From an uncultured Gemmatimonadota bacterium (lineage in GTDB: Bacteria; GCA-2686955): DNA of 64,000 nt. The notes beneath the pieces are model-generated. The model had not been told where the DNA came from. It worked only from the letters and a program-made list of their open reading frames with translations, and made no database searches. How positions within the stretch are numbered: the first letter of the stretch is position 1; every line of letters begins with the position of its first letter. Shown here in pieces: positions 8,735-47,585 of the stretch. Location: assembly GCA_964490075.1 (NCBI GenBank), contig CAZBBK010000002.1:50105-114104 (forward strand), in the 5' to 3' direction. A program made the translations under genes and the position numbers.

Positions 8735-9322
8735 ATGCGCATCATCGCTTCCTCGGCGCTGGTGGCCGCGATCGCGCTGGCCGGCTGCACCCCGGCGCCG
8801 CCGCTCGATCCGGACGATGGTGGTCCCCAGTCCTGGATCCTGACCCGCGCTTCGCATCCGACCGGTTTCGGGCGGTCCGACTGCTTCAGCGCCGGTTGCC
8901 ACGCCGAGGCCGGCTTTGGCTACGACGCCGGCTCCGACGAGCATCTGCTCCCCGAGCTCTCGTGCGTCGCCGGCGACTGCCACGGCGACAACGGCATTTT
9001 CGAGCAGAGCCTGGTCACCGGAAAGGTCTACGCCGACGCCGGCGGCGGCGAGGTGGAGCAGGGAATCGTGGTGATCGCCGAAGAGGCCGGCAATCCTCAG
9101 AACAGCGTGGAGGCCGCCCCCAGCGACAGCGACGGGCAGTTCAGCCTGGTGCTGCCGCAGATCGGCACTTACGACTTCGTGCTCCGCGACCGCAACGACG
9201 CCACCACTCGCTCGATCGACCACGGCATGAGCAGCCTGACGATCGGCGGCGACCCGGAGCGCTCCCTCGACTGCGGCGAGTGCCATGGACGCAGCGCCGG
9301 CTTCCTGGCGCCGGTCCGCTAG
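8735..9322 (+). CDS. lipoprotein with one CXXCH and two CX4CH motifs (possible c-type heme- or metal-binding lipoprotein)
   Basis: signal peptide plus lipobox LAGC; motifs CFSAGCH, CVAGDCH, CGECH; lies between rseP and the Omp85 gene. Confidence 0.55.
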   Translation: MRIIASSALVAAIALAGCTPAPPLDPDDGGPQSWILTRASHPTGFGRSDCFSAGCHAEAGFGYDAGSDEHLLPELSCVAGDCHGDNGIFEQSLVTGKVYADAGGGEVEQGIVVIAEEAGNPQNSVEAAPSDSDGQFSLVLPQIGTYDFVLRDRNDATTRSIDHGMSSLTIGGDPERSLDCGECHGRSAGFLAPVR

Positions 9323-9383: not shown

Positions 9384-11270
9384 GTGGTGTTTCGCTCTTC
9401 TCGGCCCGTTCCCCCCCCCGCCGTGCTCCTGTTGCTGCTCGCCTGCCTCCTCGTGTCGGCAGGCGCCGGGCGGGCGCGGGCGGCTTGGAGCGACGAGCAG
9501 CCGCCGCTCGCCATCCGCTCGATCCGCTTCGAGGGCAACCGCGAGCTCTCGCGCGCCTCCCTGCTCGACGCGATGCAGCTCTCCGAGGCCACCACGTGGC
9601 GCCGCACCCTCGGCCTGGAAGATATCGAGTTCGATCCGCTCAAGTACCAGATGGACGTGCGCGCGATTCGCTATCGCTACCAGCGCCAGGGCTTCGTACG
9701 CGCCGCCGTGAAGGCCGAGCGGGTGCGCGTCGACTCGCTGGCTCAAGCGGTCGACCTGGTGATCAACATCGAGGAGGGGCCCCGCTACCGCTTCGGACGG
9801 GTATCGGTGCAGGGCGCCGCGCTGATCGATCCCGAGAATATCTGGCCGCTGCTCGGCACCCGCCCGGGCGAGCCGGCCAACCTGCACCAGGTGAAAGCCG
9901 ACGCCGGCACGGTGCGCACCCACTACCGCAACCGCGGCTTCGTGCGCGCCCGGGTCGACTTTGAGAACACGATTCGTGAGGACGATTGGAGCGTCGATAC
10001 CGTCTTCCAAATCAACGAAGAGCAGCCCTACACGATCGGCAAGGTCTACACCCGAGGCAATCTCGAAACCCGTGACGCGATCGTGCTCCGCGAGATCGCC
10101 ACGCGAGGGGGTCAGCTCTACAACCTCGAGACGGTCCTATCCGACGAGCGCAATCTCTACAACACCGGGCTCTTTTCCGGCGTCAAGGTCAGCGAATCGG
10201 CGCTCGACTCGATCCGCCACACCGTGAACCTGCGGGTCGAGGTGATCGAGCGCAGCCCGCGCTGGATCTCCTTCGCGCTCGGTTCGAGCACCGATGAACG
10301 CGAAAACGTGCGCCTCTCCGCCGATTGGGGCCACAAGAACCTCTTCGGCACCGCCCGCCTGGTGACCCTGCGCGGCCTCGCCACCTGGCAGTTCAGCCGC
10401 TTCTTCGACAAGCGCAAGCTCGACCCGATCGCCAGCCGGGTCGAGATCGCCTATCTGCAGCCCTGGATCTTCGGCTACCGGATCAGCGTCGGAGGCACGG
10501 TGTTCAGCGCCCAGGAGATCCCCCTCGGGCGCCAGGACCGGCTCAGCACCCACGGCATCACCGCCCGGCTCCTGCGCCGCATCGGCACCGAGGCCGAGCT
10601 CTACCTCGAGCCGAAGCTGCAGTGGGCCAACGAGTCGACCGAGGATCGCATCCTCGACCGCGACATCAGCCAGACCAAGAGCGTCACCCTTGCCTATCGC
10701 CGCGACTCGCGCCTCAACGTCTTCGCGCCGCGCCGCGGCACCGCCACCAGTCTCACATTGACCCACGCCGGCGGGGTGCTCGGCGGCGACTTCGATTTCC
10801 GCCGCGCCACCGCCAGCCATGCCCGCTTCCTCGACCTGGGCGACGGCAGCGTCGCCGCGGCGCGCCTCTCCTGCGGCGCCGCGGCCCCCTTCGACGACTC
10901 GGACGAAATCCCCCTCGACCAGGTCTTCACGGCCGGCGGCGCCAGCACGGTGCGCGGCTACCTGGAAGGGGGGCTCGGCACCGCCGACACGCCCGAAGAG
11001 GGGGGACGGGTGCTGCTCCTGGCCAACCTGGAGCTGCGCCAGCGCATCGCCGGCTACTTGGGCATCGCCCCCTTCCTCGACGGCGCTCAGGTCTGGCCCT
11101 ACCTCTCGGCGCTCCGACCGGTGGCCGATATGCGATGGAGCACCGGCGCCGAGCTGCGCTACCAGACCCCGATCGGACCCTTGCGCATCGGCTACGGAGT
11201 GAAGCTCAACCCGGCCGCCGGAGATCCCCATCCGGGATCGTGGTTCTTCGGTTTCGGGCAGGTGTTCTGA
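9384..11270 (+). CDS. bamA: Omp85-family outer membrane protein assembly factor (BamA/TamA-like)
   Basis: signal peptide, POTRA-like repeats, C-terminal beta-barrel ending in an aromatic residue (...GFGQVF); sits in the cdsA-rseP-bamA context and directly upstream of tamB. Confidence 0.78.
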   Translation: MVFRSSRPVPPPAVLLLLLACLLVSAGAGRARAAWSDEQPPLAIRSIRFEGNRELSRASLLDAMQLSEATTWRRTLGLEDIEFDPLKYQMDVRAIRYRYQRQGFVRAAVKAERVRVDSLAQAVDLVINIEEGPRYRFGRVSVQGAALIDPENIWPLLGTRPGEPANLHQVKADAGTVRTHYRNRGFVRARVDFENTIREDDWSVDTVFQINEEQPYTIGKVYTRGNLETRDAIVLREIATRGGQLYNLETVLSDERNLYNTGLFSGVKVSESALDSIRHTVNLRVEVIERSPRWISFALGSSTDERENVRLSADWGHKNLFGTARLVTLRGLATWQFSRFFDKRKLDPIASRVEIAYLQPWIFGYRISVGGTVFSAQEIPLGRQDRLSTHGITARLLRRIGTEAELYLEPKLQWANESTEDRILDRDISQTKSVTLAYRRDSRLNVFAPRRGTATSLTLTHAGGVLGGDFDFRRATASHARFLDLGDGSVAAARLSCGAAAPFDDSDEIPLDQVFTAGGASTVRGYLEGGLGTADTPEEGGRVLLLANLELRQRIAGYLGIAPFLDGAQVWPYLSALRPVADMRWSTGAELRYQTPIGPLRIGYGVKLNPAAGDPHPGSWFFGFGQVF

Positions 11271-14200
11271 TGCGCCGCAGACGACGCATCGCCTGGCGCG
11301 TGCTGCTCGCGGTGGCGGCGCTCGGACTGCTGGTGGGCATCGTGTTCCGGGTCGGCGCCGGCTGGCCCATGACCCGCGCCCTGCTCAACGCCACGCTGCT
11401 GGAGCCCTTCGATTGTGAGCTGGCCGGCGGTCGCGTGCGCTGGTCGCTGGTGCCGCGGGTGCGGATCGACGCCCGCGACGTTTCGCTGCTGGGGGCTGGA
11501 TTCACGGCCTCGGTGGGACGCTTCCATGCCCAGCTCTCGGGTGTCGAGCTGCTGGCCGGAAAGCTGGCCCTCTCCGAGCTGCACGCCGAAAAAGTGCGCA
11601 TCGACCTGGCGGCGGGACAGGGAGGCGCGGAGACGCCGCAGCTCCCCGATCCGGCCGCGCTCGCCCTGCCCCTGACGCGGCTGCGCTGCGAGAGCATCGC
11701 GCTGGAGGATCTGCTCCTGACCCGGGAAGGCTCATCGGCCGACTTCGAGCTGGCGGTGCTCAGCGGCAGCCTCGATCGCCGCCCCGAGGGTCCGACCCTG
11801 GCGATCGACACCCTCGCCGCCTTGGTCGAGCTGCCCCAACCCTTGATTCTGCGCGCGGCGGGCGCGGAGCTCGTGGCCTGGCCCGAACGCTTCCAGGCGC
11901 GCAAGCTCTGCGCCGAGATCGGCACCGGAAGGCTCGAAGGCGACGCCGGCCTGTGGCCGGGGGCGCAGGGTCCCGCCTGGGAGCTCGAGCTCGACTTCGA
12001 CCGCTTCTCGCTGCAAGCCATCCGCGGCCTGGTCGACGCCACGCTGACCCGCGCCGAGAGCCGCCTGAGCGGCCATCTGCAGGCGCGCGGCGAGGCCGAC
12101 ACCATCCACTTCGCGGGTCGCGTGCAGGGATTCGTCGATCCGATCGAGATCGATGCCGAGGCGGTCGCCGGCTGGTGGGACGGCACCGAGCTGGTGCTGG
12201 CGCAGGGGCGCGGGCTCGTCGAAGAGATCGGGATCGACGTGGCCAGCGCGGCGATCGATCCGCGCACTCAGGACTACCGGCTGCAAGGGATCGTGAGCGA
12301 CTTCGACCTGGAGCCCCATCTCGACTTCATGGCCGGCACCGTGCTGAGCGGGCCGGTGGAGCTGGAAGGCTCGCATTTCGGCGGCGAGGAGCTCTGGATC
12401 GACGCCCGGGCAGCGCGGCTGCAGGGCTCGGTGTTCGGACTTGCGCTGGAAGGAGGCGCCCTGGACCTGCGCTACGCCGATCAGCACTTCGCCTTCGACA
12501 GCCTGAGGGTCGGCTGGCCGGGCGCCGCCGTGGCCGCGCGCGGCACGGTCGACCTCGACAGCGAGCGCATGCGCTGGGACGGCCATCTGGCGCTGCGGCC
12601 GGAATCCCCCTTCTTCGCCAGCTTCGTGCCGGTCGAGGGGCTGCGCTGTGCGCTGCGGGCCGACGGGCGTCTTGGCGGTCCCCTGGAAACTCCCCGCCTG
12701 ACCGCCACCTACGCCGGCGGGCACCTCGAGTACGGCGCCCTGCTGCTGGACGAGCTGCGCGGCGAGGTCGATCTCGATTCGGTGTTCCATCGGCCGACCG
12801 GCCGAGCCGCGCTGCGCGGCGCGGGCGCTCTCGGCGTGCTGCCGATCACCATCGACGAGAGCGCGCTGGTGGTGCGCGGACGCGAGCTCTTCCTCACGGA
12901 GCTCTTGGCCCACCAGGAGCGGCGCCGGATTCGCGCCAGCGGCCCGCTGCGAATCGACCAGGGGTTGTCCGGAGACCTCGGCGAGCTGGCCCTCGACTCG
13001 CCCTTCGGTGGGGCGGTGGCGGGCGACACGGTGCACTTCGCGAGCGATTCGATCGCCTTCCACCTCGCGCCCACCACGATCCACCTGGCCGGCGGCGACC
13101 TGAGCCTGGAGGGTCGCTGGAGCGGGGAAGAGGGGCTGGACATGGGCTTCGCCTGTGAGCGCATCGATCTCGAGCGCCTGGTGCGCCTCGGGGGCGGCGC
13201 GGCGCGCAGCGCGGCGGGGCGGCTGAGCGGCCAGGGACGAATCAAGGGCACTTTCGAGGATCCCGGCGTCAGCGGCGAGTGGCGCGTGGAGGGACTCCAG
13301 GTCGGGCCGGCGCACCTAGGCGAGCTGCGCGCGGGAGCCGCCCTGCGGCACGGGCGGATCCACGTCGATCACCTCAGAGCCCAGCACCGCGGCTCGACGC
13401 TGCGCGCCTTCGGGGACTATCCGCTCGGACCTCAGCTCGGCTGGCATCCCCTTCCAGGCGCGCCCGACAGCGTCTTCCTCAACCTGGAGCTGGAGGAGTG
13501 GAGCCTGGCCGAGCTGGGAGCGCTGGTGGCACTCGATTCGCTGGGCGGCCAGGTCGACGCGCACGCACGGCTCTCGGGCACCCTGGCCGCACCGCAGCTC
13601 GCCCTCTCGGCCGACGCCTTCGCGCTGACGGTGCTGGGGGACGACTACGGCGAGCTCAGCCTCGAGACCGAGTTCCAGGCCGGCCGGCTACACCTCCGGG
13701 CCCGCGACCAGGCCGGTTCCCAGGCTCGCGGCACGGTACCCTTCGACTTCACACTGGCGCCGCCCGCCTTCGCCCCGGGGGACGATTCGCTGAGCGTCGA
13801 GCTCAGCCTGCGAGAGATCGACGCCGCCTTCCTGCGCCATCTGGTTCCCGACATCGACTCGGCCGGCGGCCCTTTGAGCTTCGAAGGGCGTCTCGGAGGG
13901 CAGCTGCCCTGGCCCGACGCCTATGGCGAGCTGCGGGCCCGGCAGGGGAGGGTGCGCCTGATCTGGATGGACGTGCCGCTGCACGCGATCTCGGGCAGGG
14001 TGCGAGTCGACGGAACGCGGGCACGGGTCGAGCGGGCCACCGGCCGCATGGGGGCCGAGGGGCGCTTCGAGGCTGCCGGGTTGGTGCGCCTCGACGACTT
14101 CGTGCCGGTCGACTACGACCTGGAGGTGAGCGGCAAGGCGCTGCCGATCGGCTGGATTCCCGATCTGCGTGCGGTGGTGGACGCCGATCTGCGCTTTGCC

Positions 14201-15121
14201 GACAACGTCCACATCAGCGGCGACGTCCAGGTGCACGAGGCGGTCTACAGCCGCGCCTTCGGCGAGGAGCCGGAGCCGATTCCGCCGCCCGCCTTGCCGG
14301 GCGAGGAGCTGCCCTTCGCGCTCAGCTACGACTTGATGCTCGAAGGCGATCGCAACATCTGGCTGCGCAACACCGAAGCGGAGATGGAGCTGCGCGGCAA
14401 GGCGCACCTGCAGAGTCTGGCCGAGTACGACGAGCTGCCCTTCACCATCCAGGGCGAGCTCGAGGTGATCCGCGGCACCTATACCCTGCTGGGCAAGAAC
14501 TCGTTCGAGATCGAGCGCGGCACGATCCGCATGCTCGATCCCTCGGTCCTCGATCCGGAGATGGAGGTCGAGGCGCGGGCCACCTTGCGTGAGCGGGTGC
14601 GCGACGAACAGGGCCGCTACCAGAGCCGCTCCGTGCCGATCCATCTCTCCCTCACCGGGGAGTTCTTTTCCGACCTGACCTACCAGTTCACCGATCTGTC
14701 GCAAGGCCACGCCCCGATCCCGATCGAGGACATGGTCCTGCTGCTCACCTTCGGGCGGCGCCGCGCGGCCATCGATCAAGGCGGTCTCTACGACCAGAGC
14801 ACGGCCGCCGCCGACGCCAGCGCCATCACCGCCCAGCTGCTGGAGACCCGGGTCAGCGAGCTGCTCGATATCTCGCTCGACATCAGCACCGGCAGCAGCT
14901 CCCCCCTGGAGTCGCTCGACGAGACCTACGTGGGACTCGGCAAGTATCTGAATCCGAAGCTCTTCGTCTACTACAGCCAGTACCTCTCCGCCGACCCGCG
15001 GCGGCGCCTGGGCGTGGAGTACGCCTTCACCGACCAGGTGCTGGTCGCCGGCGAGCTCGACGAGACCGATCCCAACGCCTCGCGCTACAACGTCGATCTG
15101 CGCTACCGGCTGGAGTACTGA
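11270..15121 (+). CDS. tamB: translocation and assembly module protein TamB (AsmA-like, DUF490 C-terminus)
   Basis: ATG 11270 overlaps the bamA stop; N-terminal signal-anchor MRRRRRIAWRVLLAVAALGLLVGIV; about 1283 aa; C-terminus ...LGKYLNPKLFVYYSQYL...NVDLRYRLEY typical of TamB. Confidence 0.8.
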   Translation: MRRRRRIAWRVLLAVAALGLLVGIVFRVGAGWPMTRALLNATLLEPFDCELAGGRVRWSLVPRVRIDARDVSLLGAGFTASVGRFHAQLSGVELLAGKLALSELHAEKVRIDLAAGQGGAETPQLPDPAALALPLTRLRCESIALEDLLLTREGSSADFELAVLSGSLDRRPEGPTLAIDTLAALVELPQPLILRAAGAELVAWPERFQARKLCAEIGTGRLEGDAGLWPGAQGPAWELELDFDRFSLQAIRGLVDATLTRAESRLSGHLQARGEADTIHFAGRVQGFVDPIEIDAEAVAGWWDGTELVLAQGRGLVEEIGIDVASAAIDPRTQDYRLQGIVSDFDLEPHLDFMAGTVLSGPVELEGSHFGGEELWIDARAARLQGSVFGLALEGGALDLRYADQHFAFDSLRVGWPGAAVAARGTVDLDSERMRWDGHLALRPESPFFASFVPVEGLRCALRADGRLGGPLETPRLTATYAGGHLEYGALLLDELRGEVDLDSVFHRPTGRAALRGAGALGVLPITIDESALVVRGRELFLTELLAHQERRRIRASGPLRIDQGLSGDLGELALDSPFGGAVAGDTVHFASDSIAFHLAPTTIHLAGGDLSLEGRWSGEEGLDMGFACERIDLERLVRLGGGAARSAAGRLSGQGRIKGTFEDPGVSGEWRVEGLQVGPAHLGELRAGAALRHGRIHVDHLRAQHRGSTLRAFGDYPLGPQLGWHPLPGAPDSVFLNLELEEWSLAELGALVALDSLGGQVDAHARLSGTLAAPQLALSADAFALTVLGDDYGELSLETEFQAGRLHLRARDQAGSQARGTVPFDFTLAPPAFAPGDDSLSVELSLREIDAAFLRHLVPDIDSAGGPLSFEGRLGGQLPWPDAYGELRARQGRVRLIWMDVPLHAISGRVRVDGTRARVERATGRMGAEGRFEAAGLVRLDDFVPVDYDLEVSGKALPIGWIPDLRAVVDADLRFADNVHISGDVQVHEAVYSRAFGEEPEPIPPPALPGEELPFALSYDLMLEGDRNIWLRNTEAEMELRGKAHLQSLAEYDELPFTIQGELEVIRGTYTLLGKNSFEIERGTIRMLDPSVLDPEMEVEARATLRERVRDEQGRYQSRSVPIHLSLTGEFFSDLTYQFTDLSQGHAPIPIEDMVLLLTFGRRRAAIDQGGLYDQSTAAADASAITAQLLETRVSELLDISLDISTGSSSPLESLDETYVGLGKYLNPKLFVYYSQYLSADPRRRLGVEYAFTDQVLVAGELDETDPNASRYNVDLRYRLEY

Positions 15122-16332
15122 TGCGAGCCTTCGGTCGCAAGCTGCCGCCGCTCTCGTCGACCCTCTTGATGGTCTACGTGCTCCTCGGCGCGGTGCTCGC
15201 CACCGGCGGCGCATTCCTCTACGTCCACGGTCTGCTGCGCGCCCTCAAGCAGGACGCGCAGGTGGTGAGCGAGGTCTACGGGCGTTTTTGCACCATTGCC
15301 GGCGATCCCGACGGCGACGCCGAGGCGCTCGACGTGATCTTCGACCATGTCATCCGGCGCATCGACTTCCCGGTGATCATCACCGACGCCGAAGGGGTGC
15401 CGCGCCACTGGGTCAACGTCGGCCTGGCCCCCGATGCCGACGATCCAGCACGCCTGCTCTCGATGATCGACGAGATGGATCGCCGTGCGGCGCCGATCGA
15501 TGTGCGGGTCGGACGCGAGGGACCGCTGATCAGCCGCGTCCACTTCGCCGAGTCCGATCGGATCAAGGACCTGCGCCGGATCCCTTTCATTCTGGTCGGC
15601 GTGATCCTGCTCTTCTTCGGGGTCGGGCTGTGGATCATCTACCTGCTGCGCGAGCAGGAACATCGGGCGCTCTGGGTCGGATTGGCGCGCGAGACCGCTC
15701 ACCAGCTCGGCACCCCGCTCTCCGGCCTGGCCGGATGGGTCGAGCTGCTCGGCGAGGGCAGTCTCGGCCCCGAGGCGGCCGCGGCGGAGATGACGGTGGA
15801 GCTCACCCGCCTGGAGGCGGTGGCGTCGCGTTTCAGCCGCATCGGTTCGCGGCCGCAGCTCGATGCCGTCGATCTGGGCGCGGTGGTGGGCGAGGTGATC
15901 GAGCGTTTTCGGCGCCGCTCCAGCTCCTCGGTGGTGCGCTTCGAGGAGGCGCACGATTCCGACGCCGTGGTGCGCGGCGACCGCCAGCTGCTGGCCTGGG
16001 TGGTCGAGAACCTGGTCGGCAACGCCGTCGACGCCTGCCGTGCGGGCGGCGATCATGGCACCATCTCGGTGCGCTGCGCGATCGACGCCGAGGCCGGCCG
16101 CATCCGCCTCCAGGTGGGCGACGACGGCCGCGGCATGACACTGAACGAGGCCCGCCGCGCCTTTCGCCCCGGCCACACCACCAAGGCAACCGGCTGGGGA
16201 CTGGGACTGGCGCTGGCGCGTAGAATCGTGGAGGACGATCATGGCGGGCGCATCTTCTGCGCCCGAACCCGCCCCGGCGAGGGCACCACCATCGAGGTGC
16301 AGCTACCGCTCCACCTGTCGCATCCGAGCTGA
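15121..16332 (+). CDS. two-TM sensor histidine kinase (PorY-like architecture)
   Basis: start overlaps the tamB stop; two TM helices, H-box HQLGTPLS, HATPase_c (GNAVDA...DDGRGM...GWGLGLALA). Confidence 0.8.
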   Translation: MRAFGRKLPPLSSTLLMVYVLLGAVLATGGAFLYVHGLLRALKQDAQVVSEVYGRFCTIAGDPDGDAEALDVIFDHVIRRIDFPVIITDAEGVPRHWVNVGLAPDADDPARLLSMIDEMDRRAAPIDVRVGREGPLISRVHFAESDRIKDLRRIPFILVGVILLFFGVGLWIIYLLREQEHRALWVGLARETAHQLGTPLSGLAGWVELLGEGSLGPEAAAAEMTVELTRLEAVASRFSRIGSRPQLDAVDLGAVVGEVIERFRRRSSSSVVRFEEAHDSDAVVRGDRQLLAWVVENLVGNAVDACRAGGDHGTISVRCAIDAEAGRIRLQVGDDGRGMTLNEARRAFRPGHTTKATGWGLGLALARRIVEDDHGGRIFCARTRPGEGTTIEVQLPLHLSHPS

Positions 16333-16334
16333 TC

Positions 16335-17885
16335 ATGCCCAGTCCCGCACACATCCTCTGGGTCGACGACGAGATCGACAGCCTGCGCTCGCTCCTGGTG
16401 TCGCTGGAGAGCGCCGGCCACCGCGTCACGGCGGTCACCAACGGCGACGACGCGATTCAGCATCTGCGCCGCGGCGGGATCGACCTGGTGCTGCTCGACG
16501 AGATGATGACCGGCCTCGACGGGATCGCGACGCTGGTCGCGATGCGCGAGATCGACCCCGCGGTCCCGGTGGTGATGGTGACCAAGATCGAGGAAGAGGA
16601 GCTGATGAACCGCGCCTACGAGGCGCGCGCCGACGACTACCTGATCAAGCCGGTGCGCCCCTCGCAGGTGCGGGCCGTGATCAAGAAGCTGCTCGACTCC
16701 GAGCGCATCGTGGGGGAGGGGATCCGGCGCAACTACGGTCGCGAGATGGCGCGCGTCGGCGCCGAGCTTTCCGAAGGGCTCGATGCCGAGGGCTGGATCG
16801 AGACCGCGCACTGGCTCTTTCGGCGCCAGATCGAGCTGGAGCGGCTGCGCGATGCGGTGCTGCTCGACACCCACGCCGGCCTGCGCCGGGATGCCAACCG
16901 CGCCTTCTTCCGCCACCTGGCGGCGGCCTATCCGAGCTGGCTCGAAGAGGGGGGACCGCTGCTCTCGCACCGCGTCGTGGAGCGCAAGGTGGTGCCGCAT
17001 CTGCGCCAGGGCGAGCGGGTGCTCTTCCTGGTGCTCGATTGCGTGCGCGCCGACCAGTGGATGGCGCTGGAGCCGCACCTGCGCCGGCTCTTCGCGGTGG
17101 AGCCGGCCTTCGGCCTTTCGCTCTTGCCGACCGCCACCCCCTTTGCCCGCAACGCGCTTTTCGCGGGCCAGCTTCCGGCGCAGATTCGCCGTCTCCATCC
17201 CGCGCTCTGGGAGGACGATTTCTCCGTGGAGAGCTCGCTGAACCGCCACGAGAAGGAGCTCTTGCGCCTGGCCCTGCGCGAGCACGGCCTCGGCGGCTGC
17301 TCGTTTCGCTACGAGCGGGTCGACGGTGGCGCGGCGGCCCAGCAGCTGGCGCAGCGCCTGGCTTCGGCCTCCGACGTGCAGCTCTACGCGGTGGTCTACG
17401 GCTTCGTCGACATCCTGGTGCACAAACGCAGCGAGTCGGAGGTGATCCAGGAGATCACCGCCACCGAGGCGGCCTACCGCGCCCTGACCGCCACCTGGTT
17501 CGCCCACTCGCCGCTGCGCGCCGTGCTGGCGGCCGCCGCCAAGGCGGGTCGCACGGTGGTGCTCACCTCCGACCACGGCTCGGTCACCGTGCAGCGCCGC
17601 GCCGGGGTGGTCGGCGATCGCCGCACCACCACCGCGGTGCGCTACAAGATCGGCCGCAATATCCACGCCGATCCCCGCCACGCCCTCGACATCCGCGATC
17701 CCGAGCGCTGGGGCCTGCCGACGCCCTCGATCAACAGCAACTACCTGGTCGCCTCGGAGGACCATTTCTTCGTCTATCCGAACCAGCAGCGGGCCTACGA
17801 GCGGCGCCTGACGGGCACCCTGCAGCACGGCGGCGCCAGTCTCGAGGAGATGGTGGTCCCGGTGGCCACCCTGAGGCCGCGATGA
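16335..17885 (+). CDS. response regulator with receiver domain fused to an alkaline-phosphatase-superfamily (PglZ-like) domain (PorX-like architecture)
   Basis: N-terminal CheY-like REC (ILWVDDE...DLVLLDEMM...LIKP); C-terminal about 350 aa with a VVLTSDHGSV metal-site motif; 516 aa, which is the size of PorX. Confidence 0.65.
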   Translation: MPSPAHILWVDDEIDSLRSLLVSLESAGHRVTAVTNGDDAIQHLRRGGIDLVLLDEMMTGLDGIATLVAMREIDPAVPVVMVTKIEEEELMNRAYEARADDYLIKPVRPSQVRAVIKKLLDSERIVGEGIRRNYGREMARVGAELSEGLDAEGWIETAHWLFRRQIELERLRDAVLLDTHAGLRRDANRAFFRHLAAAYPSWLEEGGPLLSHRVVERKVVPHLRQGERVLFLVLDCVRADQWMALEPHLRRLFAVEPAFGLSLLPTATPFARNALFAGQLPAQIRRLHPALWEDDFSVESSLNRHEKELLRLALREHGLGGCSFRYERVDGGAAAQQLAQRLASASDVQLYAVVYGFVDILVHKRSESEVIQEITATEAAYRALTATWFAHSPLRAVLAAAAKAGRTVVLTSDHGSVTVQRRAGVVGDRRTTTAVRYKIGRNIHADPRHALDIRDPERWGLPTPSINSNYLVASEDHFFVYPNQQRAYERRLTGTLQHGGASLEEMVVPVATLRPR

Positions 17886-18367
17886 GCACCTGGATGAGCC
17901 GCTCGGTCGGCGCCACGCGGCGTCTGGGCGAGGCGCTCGGTCGCGCCGCCGAGCCGGGCGACTGCCTCTTGCTGCGCGGGCCGCTGGGCGCGGGCAAGAC
18001 CGAGCTGGTGCGCGGGCTGGCGCGCGGGCTCGGCTGCACGGCGCGGGTGCGCTCGCCCACCTTCAACCTGGTGCACCGCCTGGAAGGGGGGCGGCTGGTC
18101 CTGCACCACCTCGATCTCTACCGGATCGAGGATCCGCGCGAGCTGCGCGAGCTGGGACTGGAGGAGGCGCTGGGGGGGGAAGGGGTGGCGGCGGTCGAGT
18201 GGAGCGAACGACTGGGGGGGCACGCTCCCGCGGCGGCGCTTACTTGCGATCTGGCGCTCGAAGGCGAGAGCCGGCGCAGCATCCGCCTGGAGGCGCGTGG
18301 CGAGCATTGCGCGCGTTGGCTGCATGCCGCGCGCCGGGAGGGCTGGGATGAAGATCCTGGGTATTGA
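17882..18367 (+). CDS. tsaE: tRNA t6A37 biosynthesis ATPase TsaE
   Basis: internal ATG overlapping the RR stop; Walker A GPLGAGKTELVRGLARGLG; about 161 aa. Confidence 0.8.
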   Translation: MSTWMSRSVGATRRLGEALGRAAEPGDCLLLRGPLGAGKTELVRGLARGLGCTARVRSPTFNLVHRLEGGRLVLHHLDLYRIEDPRELRELGLEEALGGEGVAAVEWSERLGGHAPAAALTCDLALEGESRRSIRLEARGEHCARWLHAARREGWDEDPGY

Positions 18368-19049
18368 AGCGTCGGGCGCCATCAGCGGCGCGGCGCTGCT
18401 CATCGATGAGCACGGACCCAGCACCGTGGAGCTGGCCGGGCGCGGGCGCCACGCGCGAAGCGTGAGCGAGGCGGTGGCGATGCTGCTACAGAGCCTCGAC
18501 CTGGAGCCGAGCGCCGTCGACCTGGTCGCGGTCGGCCGCGGACCCGGCTCATTCACCGGCGTGCGGGTGGCGATGGGAGTGGCGAAGGGCTTCGCCGTGG
18601 GCCGCGGGATCGAGATCGTCGGGGTGTCGTCGCTAGCGGCGATCGCGGCGTCGGCCTGTGTCGAAGGCTCGGTGGTGCTGGCGGCCGCCGACGCCCGGCG
18701 CGGCGAAATCTACGCCGGCCTCTTCGCGCCCGATCCGACCGCGCTCTTGCCCCTGCCGCTGAGCGAAGAGGTCGCCATCGGCCTGCCGCGGCTCGGCGGC
18801 TGGCTGCGCGCCGGGCTGCCCAAGGGGCTCGCTCTCACGGTCGCCGGCGATGGGGCCGAGAAGGCGGCCGCGGCGCTGCTGGACGATCCCGAGCTGGAGC
18901 TCCCGGTGCGCCTCGCGGCACCGGAGGCACGCCGCTCGGCCGCGCCGGGATGCGTCGCTCGTCTCGGCCTGGCCCGCCACCGCGCCGACGGCGCCGATGA
19001 TCCCGAAGCCCTCGATCCGGTCTACATCCGGCCGGGGGTGGGAGGATGA
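18348..19049 (+). CDS. tsaB: tRNA t6A37 biosynthesis protein TsaB (YeaZ)
   Basis: MKILGIEASGAISGAALL...GRGPGSFTGVRV; placed in a tsaE-tsaB-rimI arrangement. Confidence 0.8.
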   Translation: MKILGIEASGAISGAALLIDEHGPSTVELAGRGRHARSVSEAVAMLLQSLDLEPSAVDLVAVGRGPGSFTGVRVAMGVAKGFAVGRGIEIVGVSSLAAIAASACVEGSVVLAAADARRGEIYAGLFAPDPTALLPLPLSEEVAIGLPRLGGWLRAGLPKGLALTVAGDGAEKAAAALLDDPELELPVRLAAPEARRSAAPGCVARLGLARHRADGADDPEALDPVYIRPGVGG

Positions 19050-19519
19050 AGACCCGCCGCGCCTTCGCCACCGACCTGCCGCGCCTGCTCGAGCTGGAGC
19101 GGCGCATCTTTCCCGATCCCTGGTCGCGGGAGATGTTCCTCGAGCAGATGGCGGAGGGGCTGGTGCTGGTCGCCTCGCTGGAGACGCGGTCCCCGATATT
19201 CGGCTACGTCGCCGCGGTGCGCGAGTATCGACGGGTTCACATCACCAACCTGGCGGTCGAGCGGGGCGAACGGCGGCGGGGGAGCGGTCGCCGGCTGCTC
19301 GATGCCGTGCTCGACGCCGGCCGCAGAGACGGCGCGCGCAGTGCTCTCTTGGAGGTGAGAGCGTCCAACGCGGCGGCCGCCGCCCTGTATACTGCGGCCG
19401 GATTTCGCCCGGTCGGCCGCCGCGCGGGCTTCTACCCGCGCGATCTCATCGGAGCCCGCGAGGATGCCGTGGTCTATCGCCTCGAGCTGCATCCGCTATC
19501 GAACCAGAGCAGTCCATGA
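19046..19519 (+). CDS. rimI: ribosomal-protein-alanine N-acetyltransferase (GNAT)
   Basis: GNAT motif ITNLAVERGERRRGSGRRLL; conserved position after tsaB. Confidence 0.75.
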   Translation: MKTRRAFATDLPRLLELERRIFPDPWSREMFLEQMAEGLVLVASLETRSPIFGYVAAVREYRRVHITNLAVERGERRRGSGRRLLDAVLDAGRRDGARSALLEVRASNAAAAALYTAAGFRPVGRRAGFYPRDLIGAREDAVVYRLELHPLSNQSSP

Positions 19520-40739: not shown

Positions 40740-40991
40740 GTGAGACAGCTAACCGTACGCAACGTGCCGGCGGATCTGGCCCGCGCCCTCAAAGCCGAGC
40801 GCAGCGCTCGAGGCATCTCTTTGAATCAGACCGTGATCGAGCTGCTGCGCCGCGCCTTGGGGCTGACGCCTGGCGCAGCCTATGACAACGGCCTGGGCGA
40901 TATGGCCGGCACCTGGAGCGCCGCCGACCTGGCGGAGTTCGAGCGCAACGTGCGGGTGTTCGAGCAGGTGGACGAGGAGCTGTGGCGCTGA
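40740..40991 (+). CDS. vapB: RHH-type antitoxin (VapB/FitA-like)
   Basis: MRQLTVRNVPADLARALK N-terminus typical of RHH/FitA antitoxins; GTG start; 10-nt overlap with vapC. Confidence 0.7.
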   Translation: MRQLTVRNVPADLARALKAERSARGISLNQTVIELLRRALGLTPGAAYDNGLGDMAGTWSAADLAEFERNVRVFEQVDEELWR

Positions 40992-41389
40992 CACGCATCT
41001 GTCTCGACACCTCGGCCTACAGCCACTACAAGAGGGGCGACGCTCGGGCCGTCGAGGTGCTGAGCCGAGCGACCCGTGTCGGGATCCCCGCCGTGGTGCT
41101 GGGCGAGCTCAGAGCGGGATTCCGTCGCGGTGGCCGAGCCGAGCGCAACGAGCGCGAGCTGCTGGAGTTCTTGCGCCATCCGCTCGTGGAGATGCTGCCG
41201 ATCGATGATGAGGTAGCTTCGATCTACGCGGATATCGTCATCGACCTCCGGCGCGGGGGCACCCCGATCCCCACCAACGACGTGTGGATCGCGGCGCTCG
41301 CGGCTCGCGACGGATCGGTCGTCGTGACCTACGACGCGCACTTCGAGCAGATCGCGAGGATCGGGACGAAGGTGCTTTCGACCGAGTAG
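40982..41389 (+). CDS. vapC: PIN-domain ribonuclease toxin VapC
   Basis: ICLDTSAY (conserved Asp), further acidic residues (D94, D115 regions); 135 aa. Confidence 0.75.
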   Translation: MALTRICLDTSAYSHYKRGDARAVEVLSRATRVGIPAVVLGELRAGFRRGGRAERNERELLEFLRHPLVEMLPIDDEVASIYADIVIDLRRGGTPIPTNDVWIAALAARDGSVVVTYDAHFEQIARIGTKVLSTE

Positions 41390-41657: not shown

Positions 41658-42398
41658 CTACCAGCAGAGGGTCTCACCCTGCTCGGCCCAGCCAACCCGC
41701 CCTTCCTTGCCGTGGCAGGGCCGGCGGTCCGCGCAGCGGTGGGTGAGAAGCACCCGCCTCGCTCCGGCCGCCAGCGCCGCCTCCGCCCCCGCCTCGGGCT
41801 CCACGTGCAGGGCATCGATGACCGCCAGGTCGACGCCCGCGGCGTCGCGCCGCACCTCGGCCGCGTCGGCCAGATCGCCGGAAACGTAAAGATGATGCTC
41901 TTGGTGCGAGAACAGAAACGAGTAGCTGCGCGTGAGCGCCGGTGCGTCTCCCGCCGGCAGATGGGCGTTCGGAAGCGCCCGCAGCCGCAATCCACCCGGC
42001 AAGTCGTGCGGTCGCCCGGTCTCCAGGGGGCGGGCGCCGACCACGCCTTCGATCCGCCGCCGGTCCATTCCGAAGAAGCGCAGCATGGCGTGGAGCTCGG
42101 GCAGCGCCTCGTCAGGCACCAGCAAAGGCACGGCCGCCCGCTTGCCCTCGCCGGCCAGCCGCAGTCTCTGCACCAGGCCCGGCAGCCCTCCCGCGTGGTC
42201 GGCGTGCAGGTGGCTGACCACGATCGCCCCCAACTCGAAATCGCCGTGCCCCGCTTCAGCCAGCGCCCGGGAGACTCCGTCGCCGGCGTCGACCAGGATC
42301 GGCGCGGCCCCCACCACCCGCACCAGCAACGAGGCGTGGGGGCGGCCGGTGGGGCTCAGCGCGCAGCCGCTGCCGAGCACCGTGATCGAGCGCGTCAT
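41658..42398 (-). CDS. MBL-fold metallo-hydrolase
   Basis: HxHxDH motif (SHLHADHAGG); last gene of the minus-strand glycan operon. Confidence 0.7.
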   Translation of the reverse strand: MTRSITVLGSGCALSPTGRPHASLLVRVVGAAPILVDAGDGVSRALAEAGHGDFELGAIVVSHLHADHAGGLPGLVQRLRLAGEGKRAAVPLLVPDEALPELHAMLRFFGMDRRRIEGVVGARPLETGRPHDLPGGLRLRALPNAHLPAGDAPALTRSYSFLFSHQEHHLYVSGDLADAAEVRRDAAGVDLAVIDALHVEPEAGAEAALAAGARRVLLTHRCADRRPCHGKEGRVGWAEQGETLCW

Positions 42399-43657
42399 CG
42401 ATGCCCCACCGCGGACGCGTCGCGGCGCTCCCGCAGGGTGTCGACCAGGAGCTGCTCGATCTCGTCGACCATCTGCTCCTCGCGGAAGCTGGTCCGAATC
42501 AACGTCCGCGCCGCCCTGCCCAGGCGCTCCCGCAGCGCGGGATCGTCGGCCAGGCGAAGCAGCGCCCGTGCGCAGCCCCGCGCGTCCTCGGCCTCGAAGA
42601 CCAGGGCGTTCTCGCCATCCTCCAGGATCTCCGCCGAACCGCCCCGGGTGGTGCCGGCCACCGCGATGCCGGTCGACATCGCCTCCATCAGGACCACCGA
42701 GAAAGGCTCGGCCCAGATCGAGGGCAGCACCAGCACGTCGCGGGTGAGCAAGAGCTCCGCCACCTCGGCGCGCCCCACCCGGGGGCGGATGCGCACCACC
42801 CGCTCCAGGTCGGCACTTCGAATCGTCTCGCGAAGTCCTTCCAAATACTCGGGCTGAGAGGGTCCCACGATCTCCAACTCGATGTCGCCGCGGCGCGGCT
42901 CCGCGTCCTTGCCGGCGATCCGGACCAGGGCTTCGACGGCGGTGTGCACCCCTTTGTGCGGCAGCACCTGGCCCAGATAGAGAACCCGCAGCCGGCCATC
43001 CGTGCTGCGCCGCGGCTCGCCCTCGAAGGAGGCGATCGGCACCCGGTTGTAGATCACCCGTGGCTGGCGCAAGCGCACCCCCGCCGCCCGGTGCTGCTCC
43101 AGCAAGGCGCGGCTGACGAAGCTCGCGTGGGCGATCTCGATGTCACCCCCGGCACAGGTCGGGATCCGCGCCAGGAGCGGCCGCAGGGAGCGCTTCGCCC
43201 GGCGTTTCCAGGGGCTCGCGGGCAGCGCGTCGATCCACGAATCGAGCGGCTTGTGCAGCACCCAGTCGTCGGACAGGTAGAAGGCGGTCTTCCAGGGTTT
43301 GCCGGGCGCCTGGGCCGCCTGGATCAGCGAGTGGGTGAGGTTGCCCATGTTCCAGAAGAACACCACCTCGGGCGCGAATTCGGCGGCGGCGGCATGGAAG
43401 ACCCGGAGCGAGCGCCACTCACGGAGGTTCTTGGCGACGAATCCGTGACGCCGCGGATGGTGGAAATCGGGGGTCTCGAGGGTCAGAGCTCGCCACACAT
43501 GCCCCTCGATGGTCGGTCGCTGGACGCCGTGCGTGGAGGTCAGCACACGCAGCTCGTGACCCCGCTCCAGCAGCCCCTTCACGGCACCGATACAGAGCTC
43601 CTCGTAGCCCCCGAGCGCCAGCGGCGGGTAGACGTTGGAGACCACCAGGACCCTCAT
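42395..43657 (-). CDS. glycosyltransferase family 4 (group 1)
   Basis: start MRVLVVSNVYPP; C-terminal GT4 EX7E region (...VLPSIWAEPFSVVLMEAMSTGIAV); 4-nt overlap with the downstream gene. Confidence 0.75.
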   Translation of the reverse strand: MRVLVVSNVYPPLALGGYEELCIGAVKGLLERGHELRVLTSTHGVQRPTIEGHVWRALTLETPDFHHPRRHGFVAKNLREWRSLRVFHAAAAEFAPEVVFFWNMGNLTHSLIQAAQAPGKPWKTAFYLSDDWVLHKPLDSWIDALPASPWKRRAKRSLRPLLARIPTCAGGDIEIAHASFVSRALLEQHRAAGVRLRQPRVIYNRVPIASFEGEPRRSTDGRLRVLYLGQVLPHKGVHTAVEALVRIAGKDAEPRRGDIELEIVGPSQPEYLEGLRETIRSADLERVVRIRPRVGRAEVAELLLTRDVLVLPSIWAEPFSVVLMEAMSTGIAVAGTTRGGSAEILEDGENALVFEAEDARGCARALLRLADDPALRERLGRAARTLIRTSFREEQMVDEIEQLLVDTLRERRDASAVGHR

Positions 43658-45228: not shown

Positions 45229-46418
45229 CCGCGCTCGGCCTCGGCGCCCGCCGATCCGGCCCCCACCTTGGGCGGCTCGGAAGGCTTCGAGTGCACCTGC
45301 CTGGAGCTGCCGAGGCGCATGATCACCGCCACCAGAGCCATCAGGCAGAGCGCCTGGAGTGCGACGATCACCCCTTCCAGGGTGGTGACGTTGCGCAGAA
45401 TGGTGGCGTTGATCCCGAGGCAGAAGGTGAGCAGGTAGACCATCTGCACCGCCTGCGCCTGGCTCGCGCCGAGGTCGACCAGGCGGTGCGAGAGGTGGCA
45501 TTTGTCGCCCCGGTAGATCGGTCGTCCCTCCCGGATCCGGATCCAGACCACGCTGGCCGTGTCGAAGAGCGGCAAGCTGAGGATGATCAGCGGCATCAGC
45601 ACGCCCAGGATCGAGCTCTCGCCGAAGGTGACATAGCTCTGCAAGAGCGCCAAAGCCCCCAGGATGTAGCCGATGAAGAGCGATCCGGCGTCGCCCAGGA
45701 AGATGGTCGAGGGGTAGATGTTGTGGCGCAGGAAGCCGAGCAGCGAGCCGGAGAAGGCGCACAGGATCAAGGCAACGAAGAACTGGCCCGACTGAATCGC
45801 CACGAAAGCGAGAATGGAGCTGGCGATCAGCGCCACGCCGGAGACCAGTCCATCCATGTTGTCGAGGAGGTTGAAGGCGTTGGTGAAACCGACCAACCAG
45901 AGCAGGGTTAGCACGCTGTTGTGCAGATCGTAGGGCAGCGCATCGGGCCACAGGCTGGTGCGCACTCCCGCCGACATCAGCACCAGCGCCCCGAAGACCT
46001 GACCGGCCAGCTTCAAGAGCACCGGGAAACGCTCGCCGAAGAAATCGTCGAGCAGGCCTGTGACGAAGATCACCGAGGCGCCGATGGTGAGGCCGAAGAG
46101 CTGGCTCCTGACCGCACCGATGCCGGTCGCCAGGTCGAAGATATCGGTCAGTCGCGATTCCAGGAGCGGCGAGTGCTTGGCGTAGCGGAAGGCCAGGAAG
46201 TTCAGCGCGATGGTCGCCAGGAAGGCGACGTAGACCGCGAAGCCGCCCAGCAGCGGCTTGGCGCATGCGTGCACCTTGCGCTCCCCCGGGTGGTCGACGA
46301 TTCCCCAGCGCAGCGCGATCCACTTGGCGCAGGGCACCAGCATGAGCGCGATGAAGGCGCCGCAGCTCAGCACCCACCAGGACGCGACCACGCGTTGGGC
46401 TTCGGGCGCCAGATTCAT
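45225..46418 (-). CDS. WecA/MraY-family polyprenyl-phosphate hexose-1-phosphate transferase (initiating transferase)
   Basis: NAFNLLDNMDGL motif; multi-TM; 397 aa. Confidence 0.75.
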   Translation of the reverse strand: MNLAPEAQRVVASWWVLSCGAFIALMLVPCAKWIALRWGIVDHPGERKVHACAKPLLGGFAVYVAFLATIALNFLAFRYAKHSPLLESRLTDIFDLATGIGAVRSQLFGLTIGASVIFVTGLLDDFFGERFPVLLKLAGQVFGALVLMSAGVRTSLWPDALPYDLHNSVLTLLWLVGFTNAFNLLDNMDGLVSGVALIASSILAFVAIQSGQFFVALILCAFSGSLLGFLRHNIYPSTIFLGDAGSLFIGYILGALALLQSYVTFGESSILGVLMPLIILSLPLFDTASVVWIRIREGRPIYRGDKCHLSHRLVDLGASQAQAVQMVYLLTFCLGINATILRNVTTLEGVIVALQALCLMALVAVIMRLGSSRQVHSKPSEPPKVGAGSAGAEAERG

Positions 46419-47572: not shown

Positions 47573-47585
47573 GGCCGGGTACCGC

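What the first reader, a model, noticed from the sequence alone, without database searches (positions are those of the whole stretch)
15121..17885. PorY/PorX-like two-component pair (small 2-TM kinase plus REC-PglZ regulator) fused to the tamB operon
The 516-aa regulator has a CheY-like receiver and, instead of a DNA-binding output, an alkaline-phosphatase-superfamily PglZ-like domain (VVLTSDHGSV metal site). That is the architecture of PorX, the regulator of type IX secretion in Bacteroidota; the upstream small kinase resembles PorY. The same array also holds a secreted protease with a T9SS-type C-terminal domain, so the organism may run a T9SS-like secretion/regulation circuit. Outside Bacteroidota this is poorly characterised.
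Basis: partly seen in the sequence, partly recalled or inferred. Interest (0 to 1): 0.6.

Follow-up and report, generated by a model that had tools for sequence, protein, structure and literature searches.

The report
PorY/PorX sensor pair outside Bacteroidota
The two genes are clear orthologues of PorY and PorX, the sensor kinase and enzyme-type response regulator known from type IX secretion in Bacteroidota, found here as one operon in an uncultured marine bacterium; this is a correct but largely expected annotation.

Summary
ORF 15121-16332 is a 403-aa, two-transmembrane histidine kinase. ORF 16335-17885 is a 516-aa REC + PglZ response regulator.

- **Regulator:** a PorX orthologue. It scores 551 bits on the NCBIfam PorX equivalog (cut-off 300). 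It aligns end to end with the P. gingivalis PorX structure 7PV7 (E 3e-118). All catalytic and phospho-acceptor residues are conserved.
- **Kinase:** a PorY orthologue. It aligns over its whole length, sensor region included, with Bacteroidota PorY (170-219 bits; sensor-only profile E 6e-13).
- **Linkage:** porY and porX are unlinked "orphans" in P. gingivalis. Here they are adjacent and translationally coupled. The same linkage occurs in 14 of 45 non-Bacteroidota FCB loci and 0 of 28 Bacteroidota loci.
- **Neighbours:** porX-tsaE adjacency is conserved across the FCB group. The tamAB junction is specific to this lineage.
- **Cargo:** the neighbouring 631-aa HExxH protein has a C-terminal domain that fails curated thresholds on its own. 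By profile and predicted fold it matches the T9SS C-terminal domains of PorZ and PorU.
- **Gap:** no T9SS core gene was seen in the 73 kb examined, and the rest of the genome could not be searched.

Verdict: a new member of a known kind, of modest interest.

The parts
9423..11270 (+). tamA-like Omp85/POTRA outer-membrane protein (615 aa), upstream in the same co-directional array
   Evidence: Omp85 E 3e-42, POTRA E 9e-33
11270..15121 (+). tamB (1283 aa). Its stop codon overlaps the porY start by 1 nt.
   Evidence: PF04357 TamB E 1.7e-37; junction TGATG
15121..16332 (+). porY orthologue: 403-aa sensor histidine kinase. Layout is TM1 (about aa 12-37), periplasmic alpha/beta domain (about aa 38-152), TM2 (about aa 153-177) running straight into the DHp helix (H194, codon 15700-15702), then the CA domain (aa 286-398).
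   Evidence: 170-219 bits to 10 Bacteroidota PorY, alignment 1-395; sensor-only HMM 43.9 bits, best shuffle 2.2
15232..15576 (+). Periplasmic sensor domain of the kinase (about aa 38-152)
   Evidence: Lies between the two hydrophobic segments. AF2 model order is H-H-E-E-H-E-E-H, pLDDT about 85-95. Homologous to PorY N-termini.
16335..17885 (+). porX orthologue: 516-aa response regulator with REC (aa 7-116, D55), a helical linker and a PglZ/alkaline-phosphatase-superfamily phosphodiesterase domain (aa about 227-516). Catalytic residues are D235, T268, D359, H363, D413 and H414.
   Evidence: NF052313, 551 bits; 7PV7 E 3e-118; 8TED E 1e-104; catalytic residues conserved 80/80
17882..18367 (+). 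tsaE (UbK/YjeE family ATPase), start overlapping the porX stop by 4 nt
   Evidence: PF02367 E 2e-34; PDB TsaE 5NP9 E 3e-25 with Walker A, SPTF, HLDLYR and EW motifs; junction
18348..19049 (+). tsaB
   Evidence: PF00814 E 9e-23
19046..19519 (+). rimI-like GNAT acetyltransferase
   Evidence: Acetyltransf_1 E 1.5e-15
19516..21411 (+). 631-aa secreted HExxH protein (putative metalloprotease) and candidate T9SS cargo
   Evidence: Signal peptide and AHELQH motif; weak MXAN_6640_HExxH match E 7e-4; conserved at this position in lineage relatives
21133..21408 (+). C-terminal Ig-like sorting domain (CTD) of the 631-aa protein
   Evidence: - Alone it is sub-threshold: FlgD_ig 21 bits against a cut-off of 27.
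- Family profile hits the PorZ CTD at E 7.6e-12, the PorU CTD at 1e-6 and cargo CTD 8GLJ at 0.002.
- 14 of 24 sequence neighbours match TIGR04183.
- AF2 pLDDT is 91 with seven strands; top Foldseek hits are PorZ, PorU and T9SS cargo CTDs.

Best explanation
The two genes encode the orthologues of PorY (sensor kinase) and PorX (response regulator) of the Fibrobacteres-Chlorobi-Bacteroidetes (FCB) group. The host is an uncultured marine bacterium whose nearest named relative is labelled Gemmatimonadota.

Shown by sequence:
- The kinase has the PorY size, topology, sensor domain and H-box.
- The regulator has the PorX three-part architecture, with the phospho-acceptor Asp and all six metal/nucleophile residues of the phosphodiesterase site intact.
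- The two genes are adjacent and translationally coupled inside one co-directional array: tamA-tamB-porY-porX-tsaE-tsaB-rimI.

Inferred from the P. gingivalis and F. johnsoniae work:
- A periplasmic or envelope signal triggers autophosphorylation at H194.
- The phosphoryl group passes to D55 of the regulator.
- The regulator dimerises and its Zn-dependent PglZ site (T268 nucleophile) cleaves cyclic or linear oligonucleotides.
- Its REC domain may also contact partner proteins such as a PorL/GldL motor subunit or an ECF sigma factor, tuning type IX secretion.

The neighbouring secreted HExxH protein carries a T9SS-type C-terminal domain. This suggests, but does not prove, that the organism has a T9SS to regulate.
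For: Regulator:
- NCBIfam PorX equivalog 550.8 bits against a cut-off of 300, full length.
- PDB PorX 7PV7 E 3.4e-118 and F. johnsoniae PorX 8TED E 1.4e-104, end to end.
- D55, D235, T268, D359, H363, D413 and H414 are invariant in a 21-sequence alignment and in 80 of 80 genomic loci. Residue roles come from PMC9757075.

Kinase:
- 27-34% identity and 170-219 bits to ten Bacteroidota PorY sequences over residues 1-395. The window's other kinase reaches only 51-74 bits, on the core alone.
- The best non-PorY families also cover only the core: AtoS 95 bits and ZraS 81 bits.
- A PorY sensor-only profile scores 43.9 bits against 2.2 for the best of 500 shuffles.
- Length, transmembrane positions and histidine position match P. 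gingivalis PorY.

Linkage:
- Overlapping or abutting stop and start codons, with no promoter- or terminator-like sites between the genes.
- The pair is conserved in lineage relatives.
- A PorY-type kinase lies directly upstream of porX in 14 of 45 evaluable non-Bacteroidota loci.

Cargo CTD.

Literature: T9SS may occur in Gemmatimonadetes and other FCB phyla (PMC11285876).
Against: - No T9SS core gene (porK/L/M/N, sov/sprA, porV, porU, porZ, porT) and no ECF sigma factor was found in the 64-kb window or the 9 kb upstream.
- The rest of the genome could not be searched.
- The CTD of the window protein does not by itself reach any curated T9SS model.
- Even in P. gingivalis the in vivo substrate of PorX is unsettled, and a porY deletion does not abolish secretion (PMC11320123).
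- The gene neighbourhood is housekeeping (t6A enzymes, accD, folC, and serS in other phyla). It gives no direct T9SS link.
- Taxonomic placement rests on the NCBI label of one 77-80% identical MAG.
Confidence: 0.8

Rival explanations
1. The pair is a genuine PorY/PorX orthologue, but in this lineage its output is not type IX secretion. It acts instead as a general envelope or oligonucleotide-signalling module, perhaps tied to outer-membrane biogenesis (TamAB, LptD, RseP in the same array) or to the t6A/TsaE genes that always follow porX.
For: - Translational coupling to tamB.
- The array is rich in envelope genes: cdsA, rseP, tamA, tamB and lptD_2.
- The arrangement is conserved in relatives down to 63% PorX identity.
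- porX-tsaE adjacency holds in 58 of 76 loci across the FCB group.
- UbK1/TsaE phosphorylates PorX in P. gingivalis without affecting T9SS output (PMC13241743).
- No T9SS core gene was seen nearby.
Against: - tamAB lies upstream only in this lineage. Six linked loci from four other groups have serS there instead, so the adjacency looks like rearrangement within a housekeeping block.
- The UbK1 target Tyr79 is Ala here and Tyr in only 1 of 80 loci.
- A T9SS-type cargo protein sits four genes downstream.
- PorX family members are confined to FCB-group lineages in the loci retrieved, as is the T9SS.
Confidence: 0.15
2. The REC-PglZ protein is a phage-defence (BREX-type) PglZ phosphatase, not a secretion regulator.
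For: The PglZ domain also matches the BREX-2 and BREX-3 PglZ models (E 6e-21 and 4.5e-19).
Against: - Those hits score 68-74 bits against cut-offs of 200-250. The PorX model scores 551 bits.
- BREX PglZ proteins lack a REC domain.
- No BREX partner genes appear anywhere in the window.
- The gene sits in a conserved housekeeping block rather than a defence island.
Confidence: 0.01
3. The pair was recently acquired by horizontal transfer from a Bacteroidota donor and says nothing about the host lineage.
For: The PeerJ study reports some incongruent T9SS gene trees within Bacteroidota.
Against: - Codon usage and GC match the host.
- Identity to Bacteroidota PorX is only 37-42%, lower than to other FCB phyla at 43-46%.
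- In a neighbour-joining tree the lineage forms its own deep branch outside the Bacteroidota clade.
- Synteny is conserved across relatives at 61-80% identity.
- The linked porY-porX arrangement is absent from Bacteroidota.
Confidence: 0.03

Closest known systems
PorX of Porphyromonas gingivalis (PGN_1019; PDB 7PV7/7PVA/7PVK) and PorX-Fj of Flavobacterium johnsoniae (PDB 8TED, 8P6F)
   Same: - Same length (516 against 518 aa) and the same REC, helical-bundle and PglZ/alkaline-phosphatase architecture.
- 39% identity to P. gingivalis PorX over the full length.
- The phospho-acceptor Asp and all Zn-ligand and nucleophile residues are conserved.
- Followed by tsaE/ubK as in P. gingivalis.
   Different: - Encoded directly after its kinase rather than as an orphan.
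- The UbK1 phosphosite Tyr79 is Ala76 here.
- The host is outside Bacteroidota.
- No experimental data exist, and partner proteins (SigP, PorL/GldL) were not identified.
PorY of P. gingivalis (PGN_2001) and Bacteroidota homologues
   Same: - About 400 aa, with two transmembrane segments at the same positions.
- A roughly 115-aa periplasmic domain homologous to PorY's. The H-box ETAHQLGTP is identical, and there is no HAMP domain.
- The histidine is at 194 against 193 in PorY.
   Different: - Only 27-34% identity.
- Genetically linked to porX, whereas P. gingivalis porY is elsewhere on the chromosome and no Bacteroidota locus had it within 10 kb of porX.
- The ligand is unknown. PorA is proposed in P. 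gingivalis (PMC12152298).
BREX PglZ phosphatases
   Same: They share the PglZ/alkaline-phosphatase-superfamily catalytic domain.
   Different: BREX PglZ proteins have no REC domain and a different context. Scores are far below the family cut-offs.
T9SS type A C-terminal sorting domains (TIGR04183 / PF18962; CTDs of PorZ 5M11, PorU 6ZA2, RgpB 5HFS, cargo in 8GLJ/8GLK)
   Same: - The 92-aa C-terminal domain of the neighbouring 631-aa protein is a seven-stranded Ig-like sandwich located at the extreme C-terminus.
- It carries PNP, W-DG-ND-G and G-Y motifs and a basic hydrophobic last strand.
- Both profile and fold searches put T9SS CTDs on top.
   Different: - The sequence alone does not reach TIGR04183 or PF18962. 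It sits in the FlgD-Ig-like subgroup.
- Secretion through a T9SS has not been shown.

Membership tests
PorX (NCBIfam NF052313, T9SS response regulator signal transducer) | Full-length match above the curated equivalog cut-off | tested here: met
   550.8 bits against a cut-off of 300, E 3e-165, residues 6-516 on model positions 2-513
PorX | N-terminal CheY-like receiver with the phospho-acceptor Asp (D58 in P. gingivalis) | tested here: met
   Response_reg E 6e-23. D55 aligns with D58 and is invariant in 80 of 80 loci. D11, D12, T83 and K105 are also invariant.
PorX | PglZ/alkaline-phosphatase domain with the bimetal site and Thr nucleophile (D239, T272, D361, H365, D415, H416) | tested here: met
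   D235, T268, D359, H363, D413 and H414 are all present and invariant.
PorX | Phosphodiesterase activity on oligonucleotides, and phosphorylation-induced dimerisation | not testable with these tools
   Biochemical property, inferred only from residue conservation and 39% identity to characterised PorX
PorX | Functional association with a T9SS (core genes in the genome; interaction with PorL/GldL or SigP) | tested here: inconclusive
   No core T9SS gene or ECF sigma factor lies in the window or the 9 kb upstream. One T9SS-type cargo protein lies nearby.
PorY (T9SS-associated sensor histidine kinase) | Homology to PorY over the sensor region, not only the kinase core | tested here: met
   blastp alignments span residues 1-395. 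The sensor-only HMM scores E 5.6e-13 and 43.9 bits, against at most 2.2 bits for shuffles.
PorY | About 395 aa; two transmembrane segments flanking a short periplasmic domain; DHp histidine near residue 193; HATPase_c | tested here: met
   403 aa, hydrophobic segments at about 12-37 and 153-177, H194, HATPase_c at 286-398
PorY | Phosphotransfer to PorX | not testable with these tools
   Supported indirectly by adjacency and translational coupling and by recurrence of the linkage in 14 other loci
T9SS type A C-terminal sorting domain (TIGR04183 / PF18962) | Match to the curated HMM | tested here: not met
   The window CTD alone gets FlgD_ig 21 bits (cut-off 27), CHU_C E 0.32 and no TIGR04183 hit.
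T9SS type A C-terminal sorting domain | Homology to experimentally established T9SS CTDs at profile level | tested here: met
   The profile of the window CTD plus 20 relatives hits the PorZ CTD (5M11 residues 671-758, E 7.6e-12), the PorU CTD (E 1e-6), cargo CTD 8GLJ_D (E 0.002) and RgpB (E 0.014). 14 of 24 neighbours match TIGR04183.
T9SS type A C-terminal sorting domain | Seven-stranded Ig-like beta-sandwich at the extreme C-terminus of a Sec-exported protein | tested here: met
   AF2 pLDDT 91.3 with seven strands. Top Foldseek hits are PorZ (TM 0.74), PorU, NucA CTD 8GLK_D (TMt 0.80) and mirolase CTD. An N-terminal signal peptide is present.
BREX PglZ | Match above the BREX PglZ cut-offs, with BREX partner genes nearby | tested here: not met
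   74 and 68 bits against cut-offs of 200 and 250. No BREX genes appear in the window.

The most novel reading that the evidence does not exclude
PorY and PorX were ancestrally one operon, embedded in a housekeeping block (serS-porY-porX-tsaE-tsaB-rimI-accD-folC) in the common ancestor of the FCB group. Bacteroidota later split the pair. The near-universal porX-tsaE adjacency reflects a real functional coupling between PorX and the TsaE/UbK ATPase that works through a site other than Tyr79. In this marine lineage the pair has additionally been wired, by translational coupling, to the TamAB outer-membrane assembly genes. PorXY would then report on, or control, outer-membrane biogenesis as well as type IX secretion.
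Probability: 0.25. Interest if true: 0.5.

Novelty: new member of a known kind. Interest (0 to 1): 0.3.

Why it matters
PorX/PorY has been studied almost only in P. gingivalis. There the two genes are unlinked, the kinase is dispensable for secretion, and the cognate pairing is still debated.

This window and 14 loci from other FCB lineages (labelled Eisenbacteria, Zixibacteria, Latescibacterota, Ignavibacteriales, Fibrobacteraceae and Poribacteria, plus two unclassified MAGs) have a PorY-type kinase directly upstream of porX. That gives independent comparative-genomic support for a true cognate pair. It also offers simpler, operon-encoded systems in which to look for the signal.

The data further show that the porX-tsaE neighbourhood, recently used to propose PorX as a UbK1 substrate, is ancient. 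The reported phosphosite, however, is not conserved.

For annotation, the result is routine. Current NCBI models already name this regulator.

Tried and rejected
- **Genome-contig scan.** The host genome therefore could not be searched for T9SS core genes.
- **Extending the window.** Going downstream through the transketolase gene gave only a 5-kb contig. Going upstream gave cytochrome c biogenesis and trp genes only.
- **Naming the organism.** Exact-sequence cluster look-ups returned no names. A transketolase search confirmed only the single 'Gemmatimonadetes bacterium' label, with otherwise uninformative hits.
- **CTD by single-sequence HMM.** Pfam and NCBIfam scans of the CTD were sub-threshold. 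No other window protein shares the CTD.
- **Kinase sensor fold.** Foldseek of the full kinase model returned only kinase cores and PAS-kinase chimeras. The sensor fold stays 'PDC/PAS-like by order of elements', unverified.
- **The 631-aa protein.** A PDB sequence search gave nothing significant, so 'protease' is presumptive.
- **Non-coding RNA.** Rfam and tRNA scans of the window were empty.
- **Rejected readings.** The BREX and recent-HGT readings were considered and rejected (see rivals). The antisense ORFs over the two genes were dismissed as high-GC artefacts.
- **Literature.** Searches found no paper in the held library discussing PorX/PorY outside Bacteroidota.
Full report
**Observation**

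The window is 70% GC. A codon model trained on it genes. A + strand array without a strand switch runs from position 47 to 28837.

The kinase start shares one base with the tamB stop (TGATG). The regulator ATG follows the kinase stop after 2 nt. The tsaE start overlaps the regulator stop by 4 nt. No sigma-70-like promoter or intrinsic-terminator-like site lies between these genes. One transcription unit is therefore likely, though this is an inference.

**The regulator is PorX**

- Pfam finds Response_reg (E 6e-23) and PglZ (E 1.3e-16).
- NCBIfam's equivalog model NF052313, 'T9SS response regulator signal transducer PorX', matches over the full length at 550.8 bits against a cut-off of 300. 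BREX PglZ models reach only 68-74 bits against cut-offs of 200-250.
- Against PDB sequences, the top hits are P. gingivalis PorX (7PV7, E 3.4e-118, residues 4-516) and F. johnsoniae PorX (8TED, E 1.4e-104). The next hits are plain receiver domains at E 1e-13.
- I used the residue roles described for P. gingivalis PorX (PMC9757075). The phospho-acceptor D58, Zn ligands D239, D361, H365, D415 and H416, and nucleophile T272 correspond to D55, D235, D359, H363, D413, H414 and T268 here.
- These residues are invariant in a 21-sequence alignment that includes P. gingivalis PorX, and in all 80 genomic loci retrieved.
- The enzyme site therefore looks intact. F. johnsoniae PorX, with the same conserved site, has phosphodiesterase activity (PMC10951265).

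**The kinase is PorY**

- Pfam sees only the kinase core. The best curated families (AtoS 95 bits; ZraS 81 bits in the PDB) also cover only residues about 186-400.
- I took ten Bacteroidota PorY sequences from the supplement of PMC7323717.
- blastp gives 170-219 bits and 27-34% identity, with alignments from residue 1 to 395. The window's other kinase (57293-59140) reaches 51-74 bits on the core only.
- A profile built from the PorY N-terminal regions alone (TM1, periplasmic domain, TM2) scores the window's first 178 residues at 43.9 bits (E 5.6e-13). The best of 500 shuffles scores 2.2 bits.
- Both proteins have two hydrophobic segments at the same places. The H-box histidine is at 194 here and 193 in PorY, in an identical ETAHQLGTP motif. 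P. gingivalis PorY has 394-395 residues and its kinase core starts near residue 179.
- An AF2 model (pLDDT 84.7) shows a small alpha/beta periplasmic domain, and TM2 continues directly into the DHp helix. A fold search could not name the sensor fold.

**Organism and relatives**

- The exact proteins occur on a 162-185 kb contig from marine metagenomes.
- The nearest named relative, at 80% PorX identity and 77% transketolase identity, is labelled 'Gemmatimonadetes/Gemmatimonadota bacterium'.
- After six relatives at 61-80% identity, PorX similarity drops to about 46%. The hits there are KSB1, Eisenbacteria, Latescibacteria and Zixibacteria.
- In a rough neighbour-joining tree the lineage is a deep branch of its own, outside the Bacteroidota clade. 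This argues against recent transfer from Bacteroidota.

**Synteny**

- Three relatives keep the whole array: cdsA-rseP-(small lipoprotein)-tamA-tamB-porY-porX-tsaE-tsaB-rimI-(about 645-aa secreted protein)-accD-folC.
- I examined 80 loci from GTDB species representatives, using tblastn with the window's proteins.
- A full-length PorY-type kinase lies within 300 nt upstream of porX in 14 of 45 evaluable non-Bacteroidota loci.
  - By record label these are Eisenbacteria, Zixibacteria, Latescibacterota, Ignavibacteriales, Fibrobacteraceae and Poribacteria, plus two MAGs labelled only 'bacterium'.
  - Three further non-Bacteroidota loci have such a kinase 0.9-5.5 kb upstream.
- None of the 28 evaluable Bacteroidota loci has such a kinase upstream.
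- Searching with Bacteroidota PorY as query gives the same picture. The PorY sensor profile hits these upstream kinases.
- This contrasts with P. gingivalis, where porX and porY are described as orphans outside a common operon (PMC11320123).
- tsaE follows porX in 58 of 76 loci, including Bacteroidota. In many non-Bacteroidota loci the block continues with tsaB, rimI, accD and folC.
- In six linked loci, labelled Ignavibacteriales, Eisenbacteria, Zixibacteria, Fibrobacteraceae and one unclassified 'bacterium', the gene before porY is serS.
- tamA and tamB were found upstream only in the window's own lineage. The 'fusion to the tamB operon' is therefore real but local, and should not carry much functional weight.

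**TsaE/UbK**

A 2026 paper used the porX-ubK1 neighbourhood in 81 P. gingivalis strains to propose PorX as a UbK1 substrate, phosphorylated at Tyr79 (PMC13241743). The window's TsaE is canonical, with all four UbK motifs present. The residue aligned with Tyr79 is Ala76 here, and it is Tyr in only 1 of 80 loci.

**The neighbouring secreted protein**

- ORF 19516-21411 has a signal peptide and an AHELQH motif.
- Its only similarities to metalloproteases are weak.
- Its last 92 residues alone give a sub-threshold FlgD_ig hit and no T9SS model.
- An exhaustive phmmer search found 86 relatives. Many carry the domain at the extreme C-terminus of proteins ranging from 100 to 1770 aa.
- Of 24 such proteins, 14 match TIGR04183 (T9SS type A sorting domain). 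Seventeen match the PorZ model, one of them at E 4.6e-116.
- A profile of the window CTD plus 20 relatives hits the CTDs of P. gingivalis PorZ (E 7.6e-12), PorU (E 1e-6), a cargo CTD in the translocon structure 8GLJ (E 0.002) and RgpB (E 0.014).
- The AF2 model has pLDDT 91.3 and seven strands. Its best PDB matches are PorZ, PorU, the NucA CTD in 8GLK, and the mirolase and RgpB CTDs.
- The domain is conserved in the lineage orthologues.
- I therefore accept it as a T9SS-type CTD of the FlgD-Ig-like subgroup.

**What is not shown**

No T9SS core gene and no ECF sigma factor appear in the 64-kb window or the 9 kb upstream. Reviews state that T9SS may occur in Gemmatimonadetes and other FCB phyla (PMC11285876).

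**Verdict**

This is a new member of a known family, which current NCBI models already name. The modest added value has three parts:
- the operon linkage of porY and porX outside Bacteroidota;
- the deep conservation of the porX-tsaE block;
- the non-conservation of the UbK1 phosphosite.

Noticed in passing
L006, L008, L012, L031, L038, L079 (upstream of the porY homologue); compare window 9423-15121: In six linked loci (labelled Ignavibacteriales, Eisenbacteria, Zixibacteria, Fibrobacteraceae and one unclassified 'bacterium') the gene directly before porY is seryl-tRNA synthetase. This gives a conserved block serS-porY-porX-tsaE-tsaB-rimI-accD-folC. The window's lineage has tamA-tamB in that position instead.
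   Followed up: partly
window 16560-16562 (PorX residue A76): The tyrosine (Y79) reported as the UbK1/TsaE phosphosite in P. gingivalis PorX is alanine here, and tyrosine in only 1 of 80 PorX loci. The porX-tsaE adjacency itself is conserved in 58 of 76 loci.
   Followed up: yes
window 8735-9322 (+): A 195-aa predicted lipoprotein with no family hit lies between rseP and tamA. It has one CxxCH motif (CGECH) near the C-terminus and is conserved at this position in all three lineage relatives examined.
   Followed up: no
window 30574-31986 and 32190-33590 (+): Two tandem paralogous secreted BNR/sortilin-like proteins (470 and 466 aa). Both have acidic C-terminal tails, ending in ...DDDDGIYMLPAP and ...DDSDDGVYLLPPPTD. 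They do not carry the T9SS-type CTD, and the tail may be a different sorting signal.
   Followed up: no
window 39858-40549 (-) and 40764-41389 (+): Two small toxin-antitoxin-like modules sit side by side: a nucleotidyltransferase/substrate-binding (MNT/HEPN-type) pair, and a PIN-domain protein preceded by a 75-aa ORF.
   Followed up: no
window 41658-56839 (-): A 15-kb polysaccharide biosynthesis cluster on the minus strand. It holds seven glycosyltransferases, a Wzx-like flippase, a carbamoyltransferase, two methyltransferases and a PMT_2-like membrane protein.
   Followed up: no
window 57293-59140 and 59276-59881 (+): A second signalling pair: a REC-PAS-histidine kinase hybrid followed by a MerR-type HTH + REC regulator. 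It is unrelated to PorY/PorX and was used as the negative control.
   Followed up: partly
L085 1-10000 plus window 47-28837 (+): A co-directional housekeeping array of about 38 kb with mostly overlapping or abutting genes. The order is ccsB-ccsA-LTD-trpEGDCFBA-aroA-aroE-aroKB-aroQ-cdsA-rseP-tamAB-porYX-tsaEB-rimI-...-accD-folC-wbqC-ABC-lptD_2.
   Followed up: partly
window 33669-35906 (-) and 37007-38713 (+): Two cell-wall amidases sit close together. One is a 745-aa protein with two Amidase_3 regions. The other is an AmiC-like protein with N-terminal TPR/YbgF-like repeats and an AMIN domain.
   Followed up: no
L020, L028, L046, L055: Several PorX-bearing MAG contigs carry NCBI labels outside the FCB group (Limnocylindria, Chromatiales, 'Methanobacteriota archaeon'). 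Their PorX sequences and synteny look FCB-like, which suggests mis-binning or mislabelling.
   Followed up: no
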